From the human T2T-CHM13v2.0 reference genome, Homo sapiens: 64,000 nt of DNA. The translations under genes were made by a program, and so were the position numbers. Position 1 is the first letter of the stretch; each line of letters begins with the position of its first letter. Shown piece by piece: positions 35,223 to 45,546 of the stretch. Location: assembly GCF_009914755.1 (NCBI RefSeq), contig NC_060927.1; one strand, given 5' to 3'. Under the pieces are notes generated by a model, which saw only the letters and a list, made by a program, of their open reading frames with translations, was not told the origin of the DNA and did no database searches.

Positions 35223-35739
35223 GTAACGTGGTTGCAGCAGCGACACAACTACCCTCCCCAGAGGCCCGGGGGCGAGTACCAGCTTCCTGCACGTATTCCC
35301 TCCTTCACCTACTCATTGACTACTTCTTGTCCTCTTCTGCATATATTCAGCAAGTGTCTCTGCAGTGCCTGCAACACGCTGGGCACTGTGCTGGTACAGT
35401 GATCAATAAAGACAAGAAGGTCCCTGGGCAGACACAGTCCAGTGGGGGAGGCAGACAATAACAAGTAAACAATGAACTACCAGTGGTCATGAGTTTTATA
35501 GCAGAAATGAAGATGGTGTAGTGATTGAATACGGGGAGGCAGGGGTGGCTTTGATAAGCCTCTTCTAGGGACAGCATATGCAGAGGTGGAAAAACATACA
35601 TATTCAAGACAAAGGAAGCCAGGGTAGCTGGAGCCCCAAGAATAAGAGAATGGTGAAGATGGAGTTAGAAAGGGAGGCAGGGGCTAAATCAGAGATACTC
35701 AATTGAAAAAAAAAAAATCTCAGGACCCCTTATACTCTT

Positions 35740-36033
35740 TTTTTTTTTTTTTTCCAGACAGAGTCTCACTCTGTCACCTAGGCTGGAGTGCAGTAGCATG
35801 ATCTCGGCTCACTGCAACCTCTGCCTCCCAGGTTCAAGCGATTCTTCTGCCTCAGCCTCCTGAGTAGCTGGGATTATAGGTGTGCGCCACCACGCCTGGC
35901 TAATTTTTCATTTTTAGTAGAGATGGGGTTTCACCATGTTGGTCAGGCTGGTCTCGAACTCCTGACCCCGTGATCCGTCCACCTCAGCCTCCCAAAGTGC
36001 TGGGATTACAGGCTTGAGCCACCTCACCTGGCT
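35740..36033 (-). mobile_element. AluS abutting the 3' end of the full-length L1
   Basis: TSD aggaccccttat(a/c)ctctt at 35722-35739 and 36034-36051. Confidence 0.92.
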
Positions 36034-36395
36034 AGGACCCCTTATCCTCTTTTTTATTTTTTAAATATACTTTAAGTTCTAGGGTGCATGTGCACAGATT
36101 GCAGGTTTCATACATAAGTATGCATGTGCCATGTTGGTTTGCTGCACCCATCAACTCACCATTCACGTTAGGTATTTCTCCTAATGCTATCCTTCCCCCA
36201 GCCCCCTACCCCCTGCCTGGTGTCCAAGTGTTCTAATTGTTCAGTTCCCACCTATGAGTGAGAACATGTGGTGTTTGGTTTTCTTTCCTTGTGATAGTTT
36301 GCTGAGAATGATGGTTTCCAGCTTCATCCATGTCCCTGTAAAGGACATGAACTCATCCTTTTTATGGCTGCGTAGTATTCCATGGTCTGTATGTG

Positions 36396-39300
36396 TCACA
36401 TTTTCTTAATCCAGTCTACCATTGATAGACATTTGGGTTGGTTCCAAGTCTTTGCTGCTGTGAATAGTGCTGCAATAAACATACGTGTACATGTGTCTTT
36501 ATAGTAGCATGATTTATAATTCTTAGGGTATATACCTAGTAATGGGATTGCTGGGTCAAATGGTATTTCTAGTTCTAGATCCTTGAGGAATCGCCACACT
36601 GTCTTCCACAATGGTTGAACTACTTTACACTCCCACCAACAGTGTAAAAGCGTTCCTATTTCTCCACATCCTCTCCAGCATCTGTTGTTTCCTGACTTTT
36701 TAATGATTGCCATTCTAACTGGTGTGAGATGGTATCTTATTGTGGTTTTGATTTGCATTTCTCTGATGACCAGTGATGATGAGCAGTTTTTCATGTGTCT
36801 GTTGGCTGCATAGATGTCTTCTTTTGAGAAGTGTCTGTTCATATCCTTTGCCCACTTTTTGATGGGGTTGTTTTTTTTTCTGATAAATTTGTTTGAGTTC
36901 TTTGTGGATTCTGGATATTAGCCCTTTGTCAGATGGGTAGATTGCAAAAATTTTCTCCCATTCTGTAGGTTGCCTGTTCACTCTGATGGCAGTTTCTTTT
37001 GCTGTGCAGAAGCTCTTTAGTTTAATTAGATCCCATTCGTCTATTTTGGCTTTTGTTGCCATTGCTTTTGGTGTTTTAGTCATGAAGTCCTTGCCCATGC
37101 CTGTTTCCTGTATGGTATTGCCTAGGTTTTCTTCTAGGGTTTTTATGGTTTTAGGTCTAACATTTAAGTCTTTAATCCATCTTGAATTAATTTTTGTATA
37201 AGGTGTAAGGAAAGGATCCAGTTTCAGCTTTCTACATATGGCTAGCCAGTTTTCCCAGCACCATTTGTTAAATAGGGAATCCTTTCCCATTTCTTGTTTT
37301 TGTCAGGTTTGTCAAAGATCAGATGGTTATAGATGTGTGGTGTTATTTCTGAGGCCTCTGTTCTGTTCCATTTGTCTATATATCTGTTTTTGTACCAGTA
37401 CCATGCTGTTTTGATTACTGTAGCCTTGTAGTATAGTTTGAAGTCAGGTAGCTTGGTGCTTCCAGCTTTGTTCTTTTTGCTTAGAATTGTCTTGGCAATG
37501 CAGGCTCTTTTTTGGTTCCATATGAACTTTAAAGTAGTTTTTTTCCAATTCTGTGAAGAAAGTCATTGGTAGCTTGATGGGGATGGCATTGAATCTGTAA
37601 ATTACCTTGGGCGGTATGGCCATTTTCATGATATTGACTCTTACTATCCATGAGCATGGAATGTTGTTCCATTTGTTAGCGTCCTCTTTTATTTCGTTGA
37701 GCAGTGGTTTGTAGTTCTCCTTGAAGAGGTCCTTCACATCCCTTGTAAGTTGGATTCCTAGGTATTTTATTCTCTTTGTAGCAATTGTGAATGGGAGTTC
37801 ACTCATGATCTGGCTCTCTGTTTGTTATTGTTGTATAGGAATGCTTGTGATTTTTGCACATTGATTTTGTATCCTGAGACTTTGCTGAAGTTGCTTATCA
37901 GCTTAAGGAGATTCGGGGCTGAGACGATGGGATTTTCTAAATATACAATCATGTCATCTGTAAATGGACAATTTGACTTCCTCTTTTCCTAACTGAATAT
38001 CCTTTATTTATTTCTCTTGCCTGATTGCACTGGGCAGAACTTCCAACACTATATTGAATAGGAGTGGTGAGAGAGGGCATCCTTGTCTTGTTCCAGTTTT
38101 CAAAGGGAATGCTTCCAGTTTTTGCCCATTCAGTATGATATTGGCTGTGGGTTTGTCATAAATAGCTCTTATTATTTTGAGATATATTCCATGAATACCT
38201 AGTTTATTGAGAGTTTTTAGCATGAAGGGGTGTTGAATTTTGTCAAAGGCCTTTTCTGCAACTATTGAGATAATCATGTGGTGTTTGTCATTCGTTCTAT
38301 TTATGTGATGGATTACATTTATTGATTTGTGTATGTTGAACCAGCCTTACATCTCAGGGATGAAGCCGACTTGATCGTGGTGGATAAACTTTCTGCTGCT
38401 GGATTCGGTTTGCCAGTATTTTATTGAGGATTTTCACATCGATGTTCATCTGGAATATTGGTCTAAAATTCTCTTTTTTTGTTGTGTCTCTGCCAGGCTT
38501 TGGCATCAGGATGATGCAGGCCTCATAAAATGAGTTAGGGAGGATTCCCTCTTTATTGATTGGAATCGTTTCCAAAGGAATGGTACCAGCTCCTCTTTGT
38601 ACCTCTGGTAGAATTCGCCTGTAAATCTGTCTGGTCCTGGACTTTTTTTGGTTGGTAAGCCATTAATTATTGCCTCAATTTCAGAGCCTGTTATTAGTCT
38701 ATTCAGAGATTCAACTTCTTCCTGGTTTAGTCTTGGGAGGGTGTATGTGTCCAGGATTTATCCATTTCTTCTAGATTTTCTAGTTAATTTGCGTAGAGGT
38801 GTTTATAGTATTCTCTGATGGTAGTTTGTATTTCTGTGGGATTGGTGGTGATATCCCCTTTATCATTTTTTATTGTGTCTATTTGATTCTTCTCTCTTTT
38901 CTTCTTTATTAGTCTTGCCAGTGGTCTGTCAATTTTGTTGATCTTTTCAAAAAACCAGCTCCTGGATTCGTTGATTTTTTGAAGGGTTTTTTGTGTCTCT
39001 ATCTCTTTCAGTTCTGTTCTGATCTTAGTTATTTCTTGCCTTCTGCTGGCTTTTGAATGTGTTTGCCCTTGCTTCTCTAGTTCTTTTAATTGTGATGTTA
39101 GGGTGTCAATTTTAGATCTTTCTTGCTTTCTCTTGTGGGCATTTAGTGCTATAAATTTCCCTCTACACACTGCTTTAAATGTGTCCCAGAGATCCTGGTA
39201 CATTGTATCTTTGTTCTCATTGGTTTCAAAGAACATCTTTATTTCTGCCTTCATTTCGATATTTACCCAGTAGTCATTAAGGAACAGGTTGTTCAGTTTC

Positions 39301-43919: not shown

Positions 43920-44255
43920 GATTGGATGGATTGATGGATGAGAGGATGCCTGGATAATGCAGGGATGGACAATGGATGGGTGGGTAGATGCAGGATAGAT
44001 TTTTGCATGAATTGATTGATGTGCCAGTGCACAGATGATTTAGGTCTGCAGGATGGATAGATGGCTGAATGGTTGGATGGATGGATGGATGGGAGGATAT
44101 CTGGTTAATGCAGAGATGGAGGTTGGATGGATTGATGAATACAGGATAGATAGGTAGACAAATGCATATGTGGTTCAGGATGGATGGCTGCATTGAGCAG
44201 AGGTGGAGGATGGATGGACACAAGATGAATAGATATGTGGGTACAGGTGGATAGC
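43920..44255. repeat. Degenerate (GGAT)n
   Basis: Read directly from sequence. Confidence 0.85.
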
Positions 44256-45491
44256 TGAACAAAGAAAATCTCTGATGCTGAGCACAATGTTGTTATTCAA
44301 CAAATTGTCATTGTCCTCATGTCCAGGCTGAATGAGTTAGAGTCTAGTGATGCTCCAGAGGGTTGGTTTAGTCCATAGCAGCCATGGCTGGTTCTTCCCC
44401 ACTTTCAGTCAGTGCACAGGACTCCTGAGAGAGTGTAATTAAAGGGTTCAGACCTGTTTGCAGGTAGAGGAGAGGAGTAGAGGAGTACAGCCACTAATGT
44501 GAACCCTGTACTCTACCTCAGGAGTCCTGAGGCAGGAGGAAGAGAAGAACTGTGTTCCTTCCAGCCACCACTACCTCTTTGGGTCAGTAGCCCAGGTCCA
44601 GAAGATGTGGCCTGTCCACATTGGCTGCAGCCCTCACCAGCCCTCAGCAGGGAAGGCAAAGACAGTGTCAAATGATAAACAAAGGGCTGTTGAACCCTCC
44701 CAGTGGGACTGTGGAACCCTCCCCAGAATCTTTTCAATAGTTTATTTCTTTGTTGTTTAATAGACCTATCATCCCCCAGTGGCTTAATTTTTTTAATGGA
44801 ACTTGTTCTGCGTTTGGATATTACTGGCGAATTACTTGATATTATGGTCATCCTCATTATGTCTTTTTTTTTTTTTTGAGATAGAGTCTCACTGTCGCCC
44901 AGGTTGGAGTGCAGTGGCGCAATCTCAGCTCACTGCAACCTCCGCCTCCTGGGTTCAAGTGATTCTCCTGCCTCAGCCTCCCGAGTAGATGGGATTACAG
45001 GCCTGCACCATCACATCCTGCTAGTTTTTGTCTTTTTAGTAGAGATGGGGGTTTCACCATTTGGCCAGGCTGGTCTTGAACTCCTGGCCTCAAGTGATCT
45101 GCCCGCCTTGGCCTCCTGAAGTGCTGGGATTACAGGCATGAGCCACCATGCCCGGCCCATCCTGATTATGTCTTAAGTGAAGCAGAGAATCTCTCAAGCT
45201 AAAGTTGCTGTCAGGCCATCTCAGGTGTATTTAACATGCTGTAGGGCACCTCCAGTTTCACGATATTACCCAAGTTCCTTTATAATAATAATAATAATAA
45301 AAAGCTTCTTAGAAGCCTAACTCCCCATTAGACTGTGTGCTGCATCATGGGAATTCAGAGGACCAGGCTCTAAAGACCTTGACAGTGCAATAAATTGCTG
45401 GACCTCATTCCCATTCATTGTCCCAGAGCTGTGAGAGGCCTGAGGAAATGAATCTTCTCTTGCTCTCTAACTTTGGGTTATTTATCCTTAG

Positions 45492-45546
45492 ATCCTGCAA
45501 GGCCTTGTCGATGTCCGCATCCCTCATAACAACTTCTACCGAAAGT
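45492..45546 (+). CDS. ABHD6: ABHD6 coding exon 6: ILQGLVDVRIPHNNFYRK
   Basis: ccttag acceptor, T|gtaagt donor, 55 nt. Confidence 0.96.

What the first reader, a model, noticed from the sequence alone, without database searches (positions are those of the whole stretch)
35223..45492. Complete 'gene-breaking' layout that would split the ABHD6 catalytic triad
Seen: upstream + strand AATAAA signals at 35405 and at 36474-36479 (in antisense L1 ORF2), and an L1 5'UTR whose antisense promoter points toward exons 6-8. Ser148 lies upstream of this intron; Asp278 and His306 lie downstream. Known: antisense intronic L1s can yield one transcript ending at an antisense poly(A) site and another starting at the antisense promoter. 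Inference: under L1 de-repression this locus could make two complementary, individually inactive halves (aa 1-227 plus a tail, and ORF0 plus aa 228-337), which might lower or interfere with 2-AG/BMP hydrolysis. Complementation between halves is speculative.
Basis: partly seen in the sequence, partly recalled or inferred. Interest (0 to 1): 0.7.

Follow-up and report, generated by a model that had tools for sequence, protein, structure and literature searches.

The report
Ordinary antisense L1 in ABHD6 intron
A dead, roughly 20-30-million-year-old full-length L1 retrotransposon lies backwards in an ABHD6 intron and carries the usual L1 signals that could in principle split the gene's transcript, but nothing I could reach shows that they are used, so this is an ordinary locus with an untested possibility.

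Summary
The annotated exons give a 337-aa ABHD6 with Ser148 upstream, and Asp278 and His306 downstream, of the phase-0 intron 35223-45491 (aa 227|228). + strand AATAAA lies at 35405 and 36474. A 6.08-kb L1 (36050-42132) lies on the - strand, so its 5'UTR antisense promoter region points at exon 45492.

New points:
- The L1 is dead and belongs to an old lineage that still has the 5'UTR block lost by young L1s.
- AATAAA at 36474 is inherited from the family (kept in 23 of 29 related copies).
- An ORF0-like frame (41706-42050, 114 aa) holds two consensus donors (41960|41961, 42041|42042). Both are in frame with exon 45492.

The layout is not special:
- The intron has 7 + strand AATAAA against 7.7 expected.
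- 61% of coding-intron bases would split the triad.
- Thousands of intronic full-length L1s share these parts.

No use is shown:
- None of the 6 RefSeq transcripts starts or ends in this intron.
- ABHD6 is absent from the supplements of a 988-transcript EST screen and of a pan-cancer follow-up.
- L1PA4-6 give only 76 of 2316 rows in that screen.

Verdict: real anatomy, generic kind, function unshown. Interest is low.

The parts
35065..35222 (+). ABHD6 coding exon ending at aa 227; donor CAG|GTAACG (7 of 9 consensus positions)
   Evidence: its translation matches PDB 7ots_A 'Monoacylglycerol lipase ABHD6' at 7.6e-29
35223..45491 (+). phase-0 intron between aa 227 and 228 (10269 nt)
35223..35402 (+). 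read-through frame: 59 extra aa, then a stop at 35400-35402
35405..35410 (+). AATAAA in unique intron sequence, 183 nt past the donor; downstream GT fraction 0.47
35738..36033 (-). antisense Alu inserted against the L1 tail. Target-site duplications at 35722-35737 and 36034-36049 (16 nt, 1 mismatch). It offers cryptic acceptors at 35758, 35762 and 35782
   Evidence: family D8
36050..42132 (-). full-length but dead L1 of an old primate lineage (6083 nt). Short flanking repeat CT(T)ATCCTC at 36041-36049 and 42133-42140
   Evidence: The flanking repeat was read by eye
36202..36298 (+). two L1-borne acceptor-like sites (exon starts 36202 and 36298). They would add 19 or 25 aa after aa 227 before a stop. 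The AG at 36298 is kept in 29 of 29 related copies. A YAG at 36202 is kept in 6 of the 16 copies aligned there
   Evidence: counts made by eye on the output
36474..36510 (+). AATAAA with GT-rich downstream element, on the antisense strand of the ORF2 end. Kept at the homologous place in 23 of 29 related copies (5 AGTAAA, 1 GATAAA)
40937..41125 (-). ORF1 remnant, open for 62 aa only. ORF2 is cut into at least 7 ATG-started pieces of 50-322 aa
41126..42132 (-). L1 5'UTR (1007 nt): 22 CpG, observed/expected 0.30
41287..41397 (-). 111-nt block absent from 3 of 3 young copies with open ORF1 (a second block of 25 nt lies at 41193-41217). It sits where the 129-bp ZNF93-site deletion of L1PA3 and younger lies
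   Evidence: literature passages
41533..41750 (+). inferred antisense-promoter start region (L1 positions about 383-600). No start site was measured
   Evidence: position by homology and PMC4908685 section 7
41706..42050 (+). ORF0-like frame, 114 aa, start context GCAATGG. No ATG lies between 41504 and 41706
41958..41966 (+). donor CAG|GTGAGG (last exon base 41960), phase 0. Fusion with exon 45492 gives a 195-aa frame
   Evidence: The CAG|GTGAGG form is kept in 2 of 9 near copies and 3 of 3 young copies
42039..42047 (+). donor CAG|GTACGT (last exon base 42041), phase 0. Fusion gives a 222-aa frame. The G at intron position 5 is private to this copy (11 other copies read GTACCT, one GTGCCT)
45492..45546 (+). 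ABHD6 exon starting at aa 228, with a phase-0 acceptor

Best explanation
This is a fixed, immobile, old primate L1. It comes from the lineage that still carries the 5'UTR block lost by L1PA3-6030 and younger elements, so roughly L1PA6 to old L1PA3. It inserted backwards into the largest coding intron of ABHD6 and is normally removed with that intron.

The parts of the 'gene-breaking layout' are mostly features that every copy of this L1 family brings with it: the antisense AATAAA at 36474, the antisense acceptors, the 5'UTR antisense-promoter region, and the ORF0 start and donors. To these are added one ordinary intronic AATAAA (35405) and a few private mutations.

The parts could support rare cryptic transcripts:
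- a 5' one ending at 35405 or 36474;
- a 3' one starting near 41533-41750 and spliced from 41960 or 42041 to 45492.

The most likely state is that such transcripts are absent or very minor and have no effect on ABHD6 activity.

Shown: the anatomy, the frames, and the family inheritance of the motifs. Inferred: promoter position, age, and lack of use.
For: Anatomy and death of the element:
- ORF1 is open for 62 aa, ORF2 is in pieces, and EN and RT domains are found.

Age:
- The 39 other 5'UTR matches scored are 85-90% identical (40 scored of 8188 candidates).
- Related ORF2/3' ends are about 93% identical over query positions 61-601.
- The 5'UTR is 78-80% identical to young copies.
- Blocks of 111 and 25 nt are absent from 3 of 3 young copies, at the place of the ZNF93-site deletion.
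- CpG observed/expected is 0.30 against 0.5 in young copies.

Generic nature:
- AATAAA is kept in 23 of 29 related copies.
- The ORF0 ATG is kept in 12 of 12 copies.
- There are about 7000 full-length L1s, half of them in introns (PMC3192792 passages).
- The intron has 7 AATAAA against 7.7 expected, and 61% of coding-intron bases split the triad.

No sign of use:
- The supplied RefSeq table has no exon in the intron among its 6 transcripts.
- ABHD6 has 0 hits in the supplements of PMC4908685 and PMC10506190.
- In Table S1 of PMC4908685, L1PA4, L1PA5 and L1PA6 account for 34+12+30 = 76 of 2316 rows, against 317 for L1PA2 and 113 for L1PA3.
Against: Sequence features that favour use:
- The donors at 41960 and 42041 match the consensus at 8 of 9 positions. 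That is as good as or better than ABHD6's own donors, which match at 6-8.
- Both donors are in frame with exon 45492.
- The ORF0-like frame is open for 114 aa. In 9 near copies it ends at 19-64 aa.
- L1PA2-8 elements do show antisense starts at the same place as L1HS, and L1PA4-6 do contribute some ESTs.
- The stop at 35400 just before AATAAA 35405 would make a tidy terminal exon.

Limits of the negative evidence:
- EST screens and RefSeq are shallow for embryonic, tumour or drug-demethylated cells.
- I had no CAGE, 3'-end or long-read data.
Confidence: 0.72

Rival explanations
1. When L1s are de-repressed, this locus is 'broken' into two messages. One encodes aa 1-227 plus a tail and ends at 35405 or 36474. 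The other starts at the L1 antisense promoter and encodes ORF0 fused to aa 228-337. Together they lower full-length ABHD6.
For: All required motifs are present and in workable order and frame. The 36474 signal has a GT-rich downstream element. Antisense starts are documented for L1PA2-8. 92.1% of chimeric ESTs are sense to the host gene (PMC4908685 section 6).
Against: - No transcript evidence was found in any source reached (and the RefSeq table).
- The element belongs to the old lineage that still has the ZNF93-site region. L1PA4-6 are rare among antisense-promoter ESTs.
- CpG decay weakens the idea that demethylation alone would switch it on.
- Five further + strand AATAAA and two ATTAAA lie between the L1 and exon 45492, as does an antisense Alu at about 44866-45160. 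These could end or divert unspliced transcripts.
- Both poly(A) signals lie within about 1.3 kb of a used 5' splice site. U1 snRNP usually suppresses cleavage there (recalled knowledge, not tested).
- Neither half alone can be active, and complementation is unsupported.
Confidence: 0.13
2. Only the upstream half matters. The Alu and the L1 tail cause occasional exonization or intronic polyadenylation, giving a truncated aa 1-227 product. There is no antisense-promoter activity.
For: - Acceptor-like sites at 35758, 35762, 35782 (Alu), 36202 and 36298 (L1) lie upstream of AATAAA 36474. All give short tails with stops.
- Intronic L1s are reported to induce intron retention, exonization and cryptic polyadenylation (PMC3192792, title and abstract seen in the listing; passages).
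Against: RefSeq lists no such exon. The cited minigene work concerns mainly L1s with active promoters and tandem orientation. There are no data for this locus.
Confidence: 0.08
3. The element acts on ABHD6 through chromatin or interference rather than through chimeric messages. Either KRAB zinc-finger/KAP1 heterochromatin is seeded on the 5'UTR, or L1 sense-promoter transcription runs antisense to ABHD6.
For: The block matching the ZNF93-site region is present. The 5' end of the L1, including the region of the known YY1 box, is retained (motif recalled). L1 promoters can cause transcriptional interference in minigenes.
Against: No chromatin or expression data were available here. ABHD6 is broadly expressed despite this fixed insertion (recalled).
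Confidence: 0.07

Closest known systems
L1 'gene-breaking' (Wheelan, Aizawa, Han, Boeke 2005, Genome Res 15:1073). The paper is not held; I know it from citing passages and recall
   Same: An intronic L1 lies antisense to its host gene. An antisense-strand poly(A) signal lies upstream, and the 5'UTR antisense promoter points at the downstream exons.
   Different: The published cases rest on transcripts that end and start in the L1. None is known here. This element is old and dead.
L1 antisense-promoter chimeric transcripts (Speek 2001, not held; Criscione et al. 2016, PMC4908685: abstract, sections 6 and 7, and supplements searched)
   Same: The same 5'UTR type as L1HS and L1PA2-8. The start region falls at L1 positions about 400-600. 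The orientation is sense to the gene and downstream of its start site.
   Different: ABHD6 is not among the genes of the 988 transcripts (0 hits). L1PA4-6 sources make up only 76 of 2316 rows.
ORF0 and its fusion proteins (Denli et al. 2015, Cell 163:583). The paper is not held; I know it from passages of PMC4859970
   Same: The ATG is at the homologous place (12 of 12 copies compared). The N-terminal sequence is related to the 71-aa frame of young copies. Splice donors lie inside or just after the frame.
   Different: The frame here is 114 aa through a 2-nt length variant and the absence of later stops. It is 64 aa or less in 9 near copies and 60-71 aa in young ones. The family's first donor is weak here (6 of 9) and out of frame. 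No evidence of translation exists.
Intronic L1 and Alu exonization and cryptic polyadenylation (Kaer et al. 2011, PMC3192792: passages read)
   Same: Repeat-borne acceptors and poly(A) signals lie inside a long intron.
   Different: The reported effects were measured on other genes and minigenes. Nothing has been measured for ABHD6.

Membership tests
L1 gene-breaking locus | L1 with a 5'UTR lying antisense in an intron of a coding gene | tested here: met
   L1 at 36050-42132 on the - strand, inside intron 35223-45491 of the + strand gene
L1 gene-breaking locus | poly(A) signal on the gene's strand upstream of the antisense promoter | tested here: met
   AATAAA at 35405 and 36474. The second is family-inherited, 23 of 29 copies. 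This shows a motif only; cleavage was not tested
L1 gene-breaking locus | a transcript ending in or before the L1, and a transcript starting at its antisense promoter | tested here: not met
   None appears in the supplied RefSeq table (6 transcripts). ABHD6 is absent from the supplements of PMC4908685 and PMC10506190. No paper was found. CAGE, 3'-seq and long reads were not available, so this is absence in shallow sources
Primate L1 (L1PA), lineage before the ZNF93-site deletion | endonuclease and reverse transcriptase coding remnants, 5'UTR of the L1PA type, A-tail and target-site duplication | tested here: met
   Pfam EN 6.5e-10 and RVT_1 2.8e-15. 5'UTR is 85-90% identical to 39 other copies. 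T-run at 36050 and a short flanking repeat (by eye)
Primate L1 (L1PA), lineage before the ZNF93-site deletion | presence of the 5'UTR segment deleted in L1PA3-6030, L1PA2 and L1HS | tested here: met
   A 111-nt block at 41287-41397 is absent from 3 of 3 young copies and shared with the 2 near copies in the same alignment. Its identity with the published 129-bp segment is by position only
Primate L1 (L1PA), lineage before the ZNF93-site deletion | exact subfamily (L1PA3, 4, 5 or 6) by diagnostic positions | not testable with these tools
   No repeat library or subfamily reference was on hand, and I built no consensus
Retrotransposition-competent L1 | intact ORF1 and ORF2 | tested here: not met
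   ORF1 is open for 62 aa; ORF2 is in pieces of 50-322 aa
L1 ORF0 | antisense 5'UTR ORF of about 70 aa from a conserved ATG in a good start context | tested here: inconclusive
   The ATG and N-terminus are conserved and the context is GCAATGG. But the length is 114 aa here, and Pfam has no model for it (0 families)
L1 ORF0 | splice donors that allow fusion to downstream exons | tested here: met
   Donors at 41960|41961 and 42041|42042 match 8 of 9 consensus positions, are phase 0, and are in frame with exon 45492. Their use was not tested
ABHD6 alpha/beta hydrolase | GXSXG nucleophile elbow and the Ser-Asp-His triad at 148, 278 and 306 | tested here: met
   GTSMG with Ser148, Asp278 and His306 in the spliced translation. 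Abhydrolase_1 at 8.1e-09 on the Ser148 exon. The triad is called 'postulated S148-D278-H306' in PMC6271436 (passage). A solved structure, 7OTS, exists

The most novel reading that the evidence does not exclude
This particular copy has private changes: a 2-nt length variant that keeps the ORF0 frame open to 114 aa, no later stops, and a C-to-G change that improves the donor at 42042. Because of these it can encode an in-frame, primate-only ORF0-ABHD6(228-337) protein of 195 or 222 aa. In ES cells, germ cells or hypomethylated tumours it could be made together with a truncated membrane-anchored aa 1-227 form. This would be a genuine two-part 'broken' lipid hydrolase gene.
Probability: 0.08. Interest if true: 0.45.

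Novelty: new member of a known kind. Interest (0 to 1): 0.18.

Why it matters
ABHD6 hydrolyses 2-arachidonoylglycerol and, according to the finding, BMP. A switch that splits its catalytic residues onto two messages in de-repressed cells would be a primate-specific way of lowering its activity, and a clean test case for gene-breaking.

As it stands, the locus shows only that a generic intronic L1 happens to sit between the catalytic residues. That would be true for 61% of the coding-intron sequence. Its value is as a precisely specified, cheap check in existing long-read, CAGE or 3'-end data, with exact junctions given, and not as a discovery.

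Tried and rejected
Sources that were closed or not held:
- Wheelan 2005, Speek 2001, Khan 2006, Jacobs 2014, Denli 2015 and Yang 2003 are not held. What I say of them comes from citing papers or recall.
- I could not confirm from print that 36474 is the 'major antisense poly(A) site' of L1. A search for 'antisense polyadenylation' found no paper with that phrase. I tested family conservation instead.

Searches that found nothing:
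- ABHD6 with 'L1 antisense promoter': 0 papers.
- ABHD6 with LINE-1 and chimeric transcript: 0 papers.
- ABHD6 with L1PA: 0 papers.
- ABHD6 with retrotransposon and intron: one unrelated cucumber paper.
- Rfam found nothing in 35000-45900.
- Pfam found nothing for the ORF0-like frame, the ORF1 remnant or three ORF2 pieces.

Steps not possible or not taken:
- The subfamily could not be named without a repeat library.
- No splice-site scoring model was available, so I used matches to the 9-position consensus.
- The whole spliced ABHD6 or fusion protein could not be passed to Pfam or structure tools because it is a joined sequence. Single exons were used instead.
- No complex prediction of the two halves was sent, because I do not claim that they bind.

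Full report

Yes.
- + strand AATAAA is at 35405-35410 and 36474-36479.
- Splicing the annotated coding parts gives a 1014-nt frame and a 337-aa protein. It has GTSMG around Ser148 (window 31389), Asp278 (45855) and His306 (54074).
- The exon ending at 35222 closes codon 227 exactly, so intron 35223-45491 is phase 0 between aa 227 and 228.
- The Ser148 exon alone hits Pfam Abhydrolase_1 (8.1e-09).
- The exon 35067-35222 matches the solved structure 7OTS, 'Monoacylglycerol lipase ABHD6' (7.6e-29).
- The triad S148-D278-H306 is given as 'postulated' for ABHD6 in PMC6271436 (passage).

**2. What lies in the intron?**

*The L1.* A full-length L1 lies on the - strand from 36050 to 42132 (6083 nt).
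- On the + strand its tail reads as a T-run from 36050. Its own AATAAA is on the - strand at 36053.
- Homology with other genomic copies ends at 42132.
- A short repeat, CT(T)ATCCTC, flanks it at 36041-36049 and 42133-42140 (read by eye).
- ORF1 is open for only 62 aa, and ORF2 is cut into pieces of 50-322 aa.
- Two pieces hit Exo_endo_phos_2 (6.5e-10) and RVT_1 (2.8e-15). The other five frames tested hit nothing.
- The element is therefore dead.

*Other repeats.* An antisense Alu (35738-36033) sits against the L1 tail, with a 16-nt target-site duplication (35722-35737 and 36034-36049, 1 mismatch). Further Alus lie at about 42243-42350, 42857-43150 and 44866-45160.

**3. Age and lineage**

The window's genome is held, so I compared copies without building any consensus.
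- The 5'UTR (1005 nt) finds 39 other copies at 85-90% identity. These are 40 scored of 8188 candidates, so they are the nearest copies, not a sample.
- The ORF2/3' end finds copies at about 93% over query positions 61-601. The element has roughly 28 nt fewer than most copies near its 3' end.
- I compared it with three young copies with open ORF1. These were L011-L013, from 150 scored of 35582 candidates. L014 lacks a 5'UTR and dropped out.
- Against those three, the 5'UTR is 78-80% identical. It carries a 111-nt block (41287-41397) and a 25-nt block (41193-41217) that all three lack and that the two near copies in the same alignment share.
- By position, the larger block is the region of the 129-bp deletion that removed the ZNF93 site in L1PA3-6030 and its descendants (PMC7110667 passages; PMC6719617 passages).
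- CpG observed/expected in the 5'UTR is 0.30 (22 CpG in 1007 nt). Young copies have 0.49-0.51 and the nine near copies 0.18-0.32.
- I conclude that the element is of the L1PA6-to-old-L1PA3 range. The exact subfamily could not be named without a repeat library.

**4. The 'upstream half'**

- Reading through the donor at 35222 adds 59 aa and stops at 35400-35402, just before AATAAA 35405.
- That hexamer lies in unique sequence, with an unremarkable downstream region (GT fraction 0.47).
- The hexamer at 36474 has a GT-rich downstream element (0.65). It is a family feature: the homologous place reads AATAAA in 23 of 29 related copies, AGTAAA in 5 and GATAAA in 1.
- Upstream of it the L1 offers acceptor-like sites at 36202 and 36298, giving tails of 19 and 25 aa.
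- The AG at 36298 is kept in 29 of 29 copies. A YAG at 36202 is kept in 6 of the 16 copies aligned there (by eye).
- The Alu adds acceptor-like sites at 35758, 35762 and 35782.

**5. The 'downstream half'**

- Criscione et al. place antisense starts of L1HS and of L1PA2-8 within the first 600 bp, with the main one near 400 (section 7 read).
- On the + strand an ORF0-like frame runs from 41706 to 42050 (114 aa). Its context is GCAATGG, and no ATG lies between 41504 and 41706.
- The ATG is kept in 12 of 12 copies compared. The open length is:
  - 64 aa in 5 of the 9 near copies, 49-55 aa in 3, and 19 aa in 1;
  - 71, 71 and 60 aa in the three young copies.
- The 114-aa length here is private. 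It arises from a 2-nt length variant shared with 3 near copies, plus the absence of later stops.
- The family's first donor is weak here (CAG|GTACAG at 41896|41897, 6 of 9 consensus positions) and is in phase 2, giving an out-of-frame 144-aa product.
- Two other donors match 8 of 9 consensus positions and are in phase 0: CAG|GTGAGG (41960|41961) and CAG|GTACGT (42041|42042).
- Joined to the phase-0 acceptor at 45492, these two donors give open frames of 195 and 222 aa that end with the normal ABHD6 C-terminus.
- So 'ORF0 plus aa 228-337' is possible in frame.
- Against smooth use: + strand AATAAA at 42369, 42379, 43737, 45296 and 45389, and ATTAAA at 42230 and 44438, lie between the L1 and the exon.

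**6. Is it more than chance or more than generic?**

No.
- The window has 48 AATAAA on the + strand. At that rate the intron should have 7.7, and it has 7.
- The window as a whole has more AATAAA than dinucleotide shuffles predict (123 against 48.8). This reflects its A/T-rich repeats.
- Inside the L1, the + strand has 1 and the - strand 17. This is the known asymmetry of L1.
- Four of the seven coding introns, 22211 of 36173 intron bases (61%), lie between Ser148 and His306. An insertion that 'splits the triad' is therefore the expected outcome.
- Kaer et al. cite about 7000 full-length L1s, half of them in introns, of which roughly 1000 are in tandem (sense) orientation (passages). By subtraction, a few thousand antisense intronic full-length L1s carry the same parts. 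This last step is my inference.

**7. Is it used?**

I found no sign of use.
- The supplied RefSeq table lists 6 transcripts. Their only extra exons are 9059-10341, 10133-10341 and 53993-55141. None starts or ends in this intron.
- In Criscione et al. (988 chimeric transcripts from ESTs), ABHD6 has 0 occurrences in the 11 supplementary files.
- It has 0 occurrences in the main texts of PMC3192792 and PMC2768975.
- Four full-text searches linking ABHD6 to L1 terms found nothing relevant.
- Base rates also weigh against use. In Table S1 of Criscione et al. (2316 data rows), the L1 source is L1PA2 in 317 rows, L1PA3 in 113, L1HS in 54, L1PA4 in 34, L1PA5 in 12 and L1PA6 in 30.
- These sources are shallow for ES cells, tumours and drug-treated cells. 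I had no CAGE, 3'-end or long-read data. Absence is therefore weak evidence.

**8. Mechanism and odds**

- Most likely (0.72): the element is inert baggage removed with the intron. Cryptic transcripts are absent or trace.
  - Even then, an effect on ABHD6 activity would need a large share of transcripts to be diverted.
  - The element's retained ZNF93-site region and its decayed CpGs suggest that loss of KZFP/KAP1 control, rather than DNA demethylation alone, would be the relevant trigger. This is an inference.
- Upstream truncation only: 0.08.
- Chromatin or interference effects: 0.07.
- Neither half could be active alone. Aa 1-227 has the nucleophile but no Asp or His. Aa 228-337 has Asp and His but no nucleophile. 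It also lacks the N-terminal part, which I recall holds the membrane anchor.
- Nothing supports complementation between the halves, and I did not test it.

**9. Comparison and novelty**

- The kind is known. It comprises gene-breaking by antisense intronic L1 (Wheelan 2005), antisense-promoter chimeric transcripts (Speek 2001; Criscione 2016), ORF0 fusions (Denli 2015), and repeat-driven exonization and polyadenylation (Kaer 2011).
- This locus meets the structural criteria. It fails the one criterion that defines a gene-breaking case, the transcripts.
- It is at best an unreported candidate member of a known kind.
- The only locus-specific curiosity is that private changes make the ORF0-like frame long enough to include two in-frame donors.

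Noticed in passing
window 35722-36049: An antisense Alu inserted exactly at the end of the L1's A-tail. Its 16-nt target-site duplication (AGGACCCCTTAT[A/C]CTC) overlaps the L1's own short flanking repeat. A similar TTATACTC also follows the L1's other end at about 42143-42150.
   Followed up: partly
PMC3320662, sections 10-11: This review prints the ABHD6 and ABHD12 motif and triad labels swapped: GTSMG / S148-D278-H306 is given under ABHD12. The window's ABHD6 translation and PMC6271436 show that they belong to ABHD6.
   Followed up: yes
window 44051-44092 (wider GGAT/GGATG-rich stretch about 43920-44240): A (GGAT)n microsatellite, 10.5 copies at 78% matches, lies inside a longer degenerate GGAT-rich stretch seen.
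   Followed up: no
window about 36150-36210: This L1 copy is about 28 nt shorter than most related copies near its 3' end: 601 query bases align to about 629 subject bases.
   Followed up: no
window 42100-42132, - strand: The extreme 5' end of the L1, including the region where the sense-promoter YY1 box lies (motif recalled), is retained and close to that of other copies. Sense-promoter transcripts would run antisense to ABHD6 for 6 kb.
   Followed up: no
window 53993 / 53996: The annotation lists an alternative last-exon start 3 nt upstream (53993 against 53996), a NAGNAG-type acceptor that would add one residue after aa 279.
   Followed up: no
whole window: AATAAA is 2.5 times more frequent than in dinucleotide-preserving shuffles (123 against 48.8, 0 of 100 shuffles reach it). 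The - strand has more than the + strand (75 against 48). This probably reflects A-tails and the orientation of repeats.
   Followed up: partly
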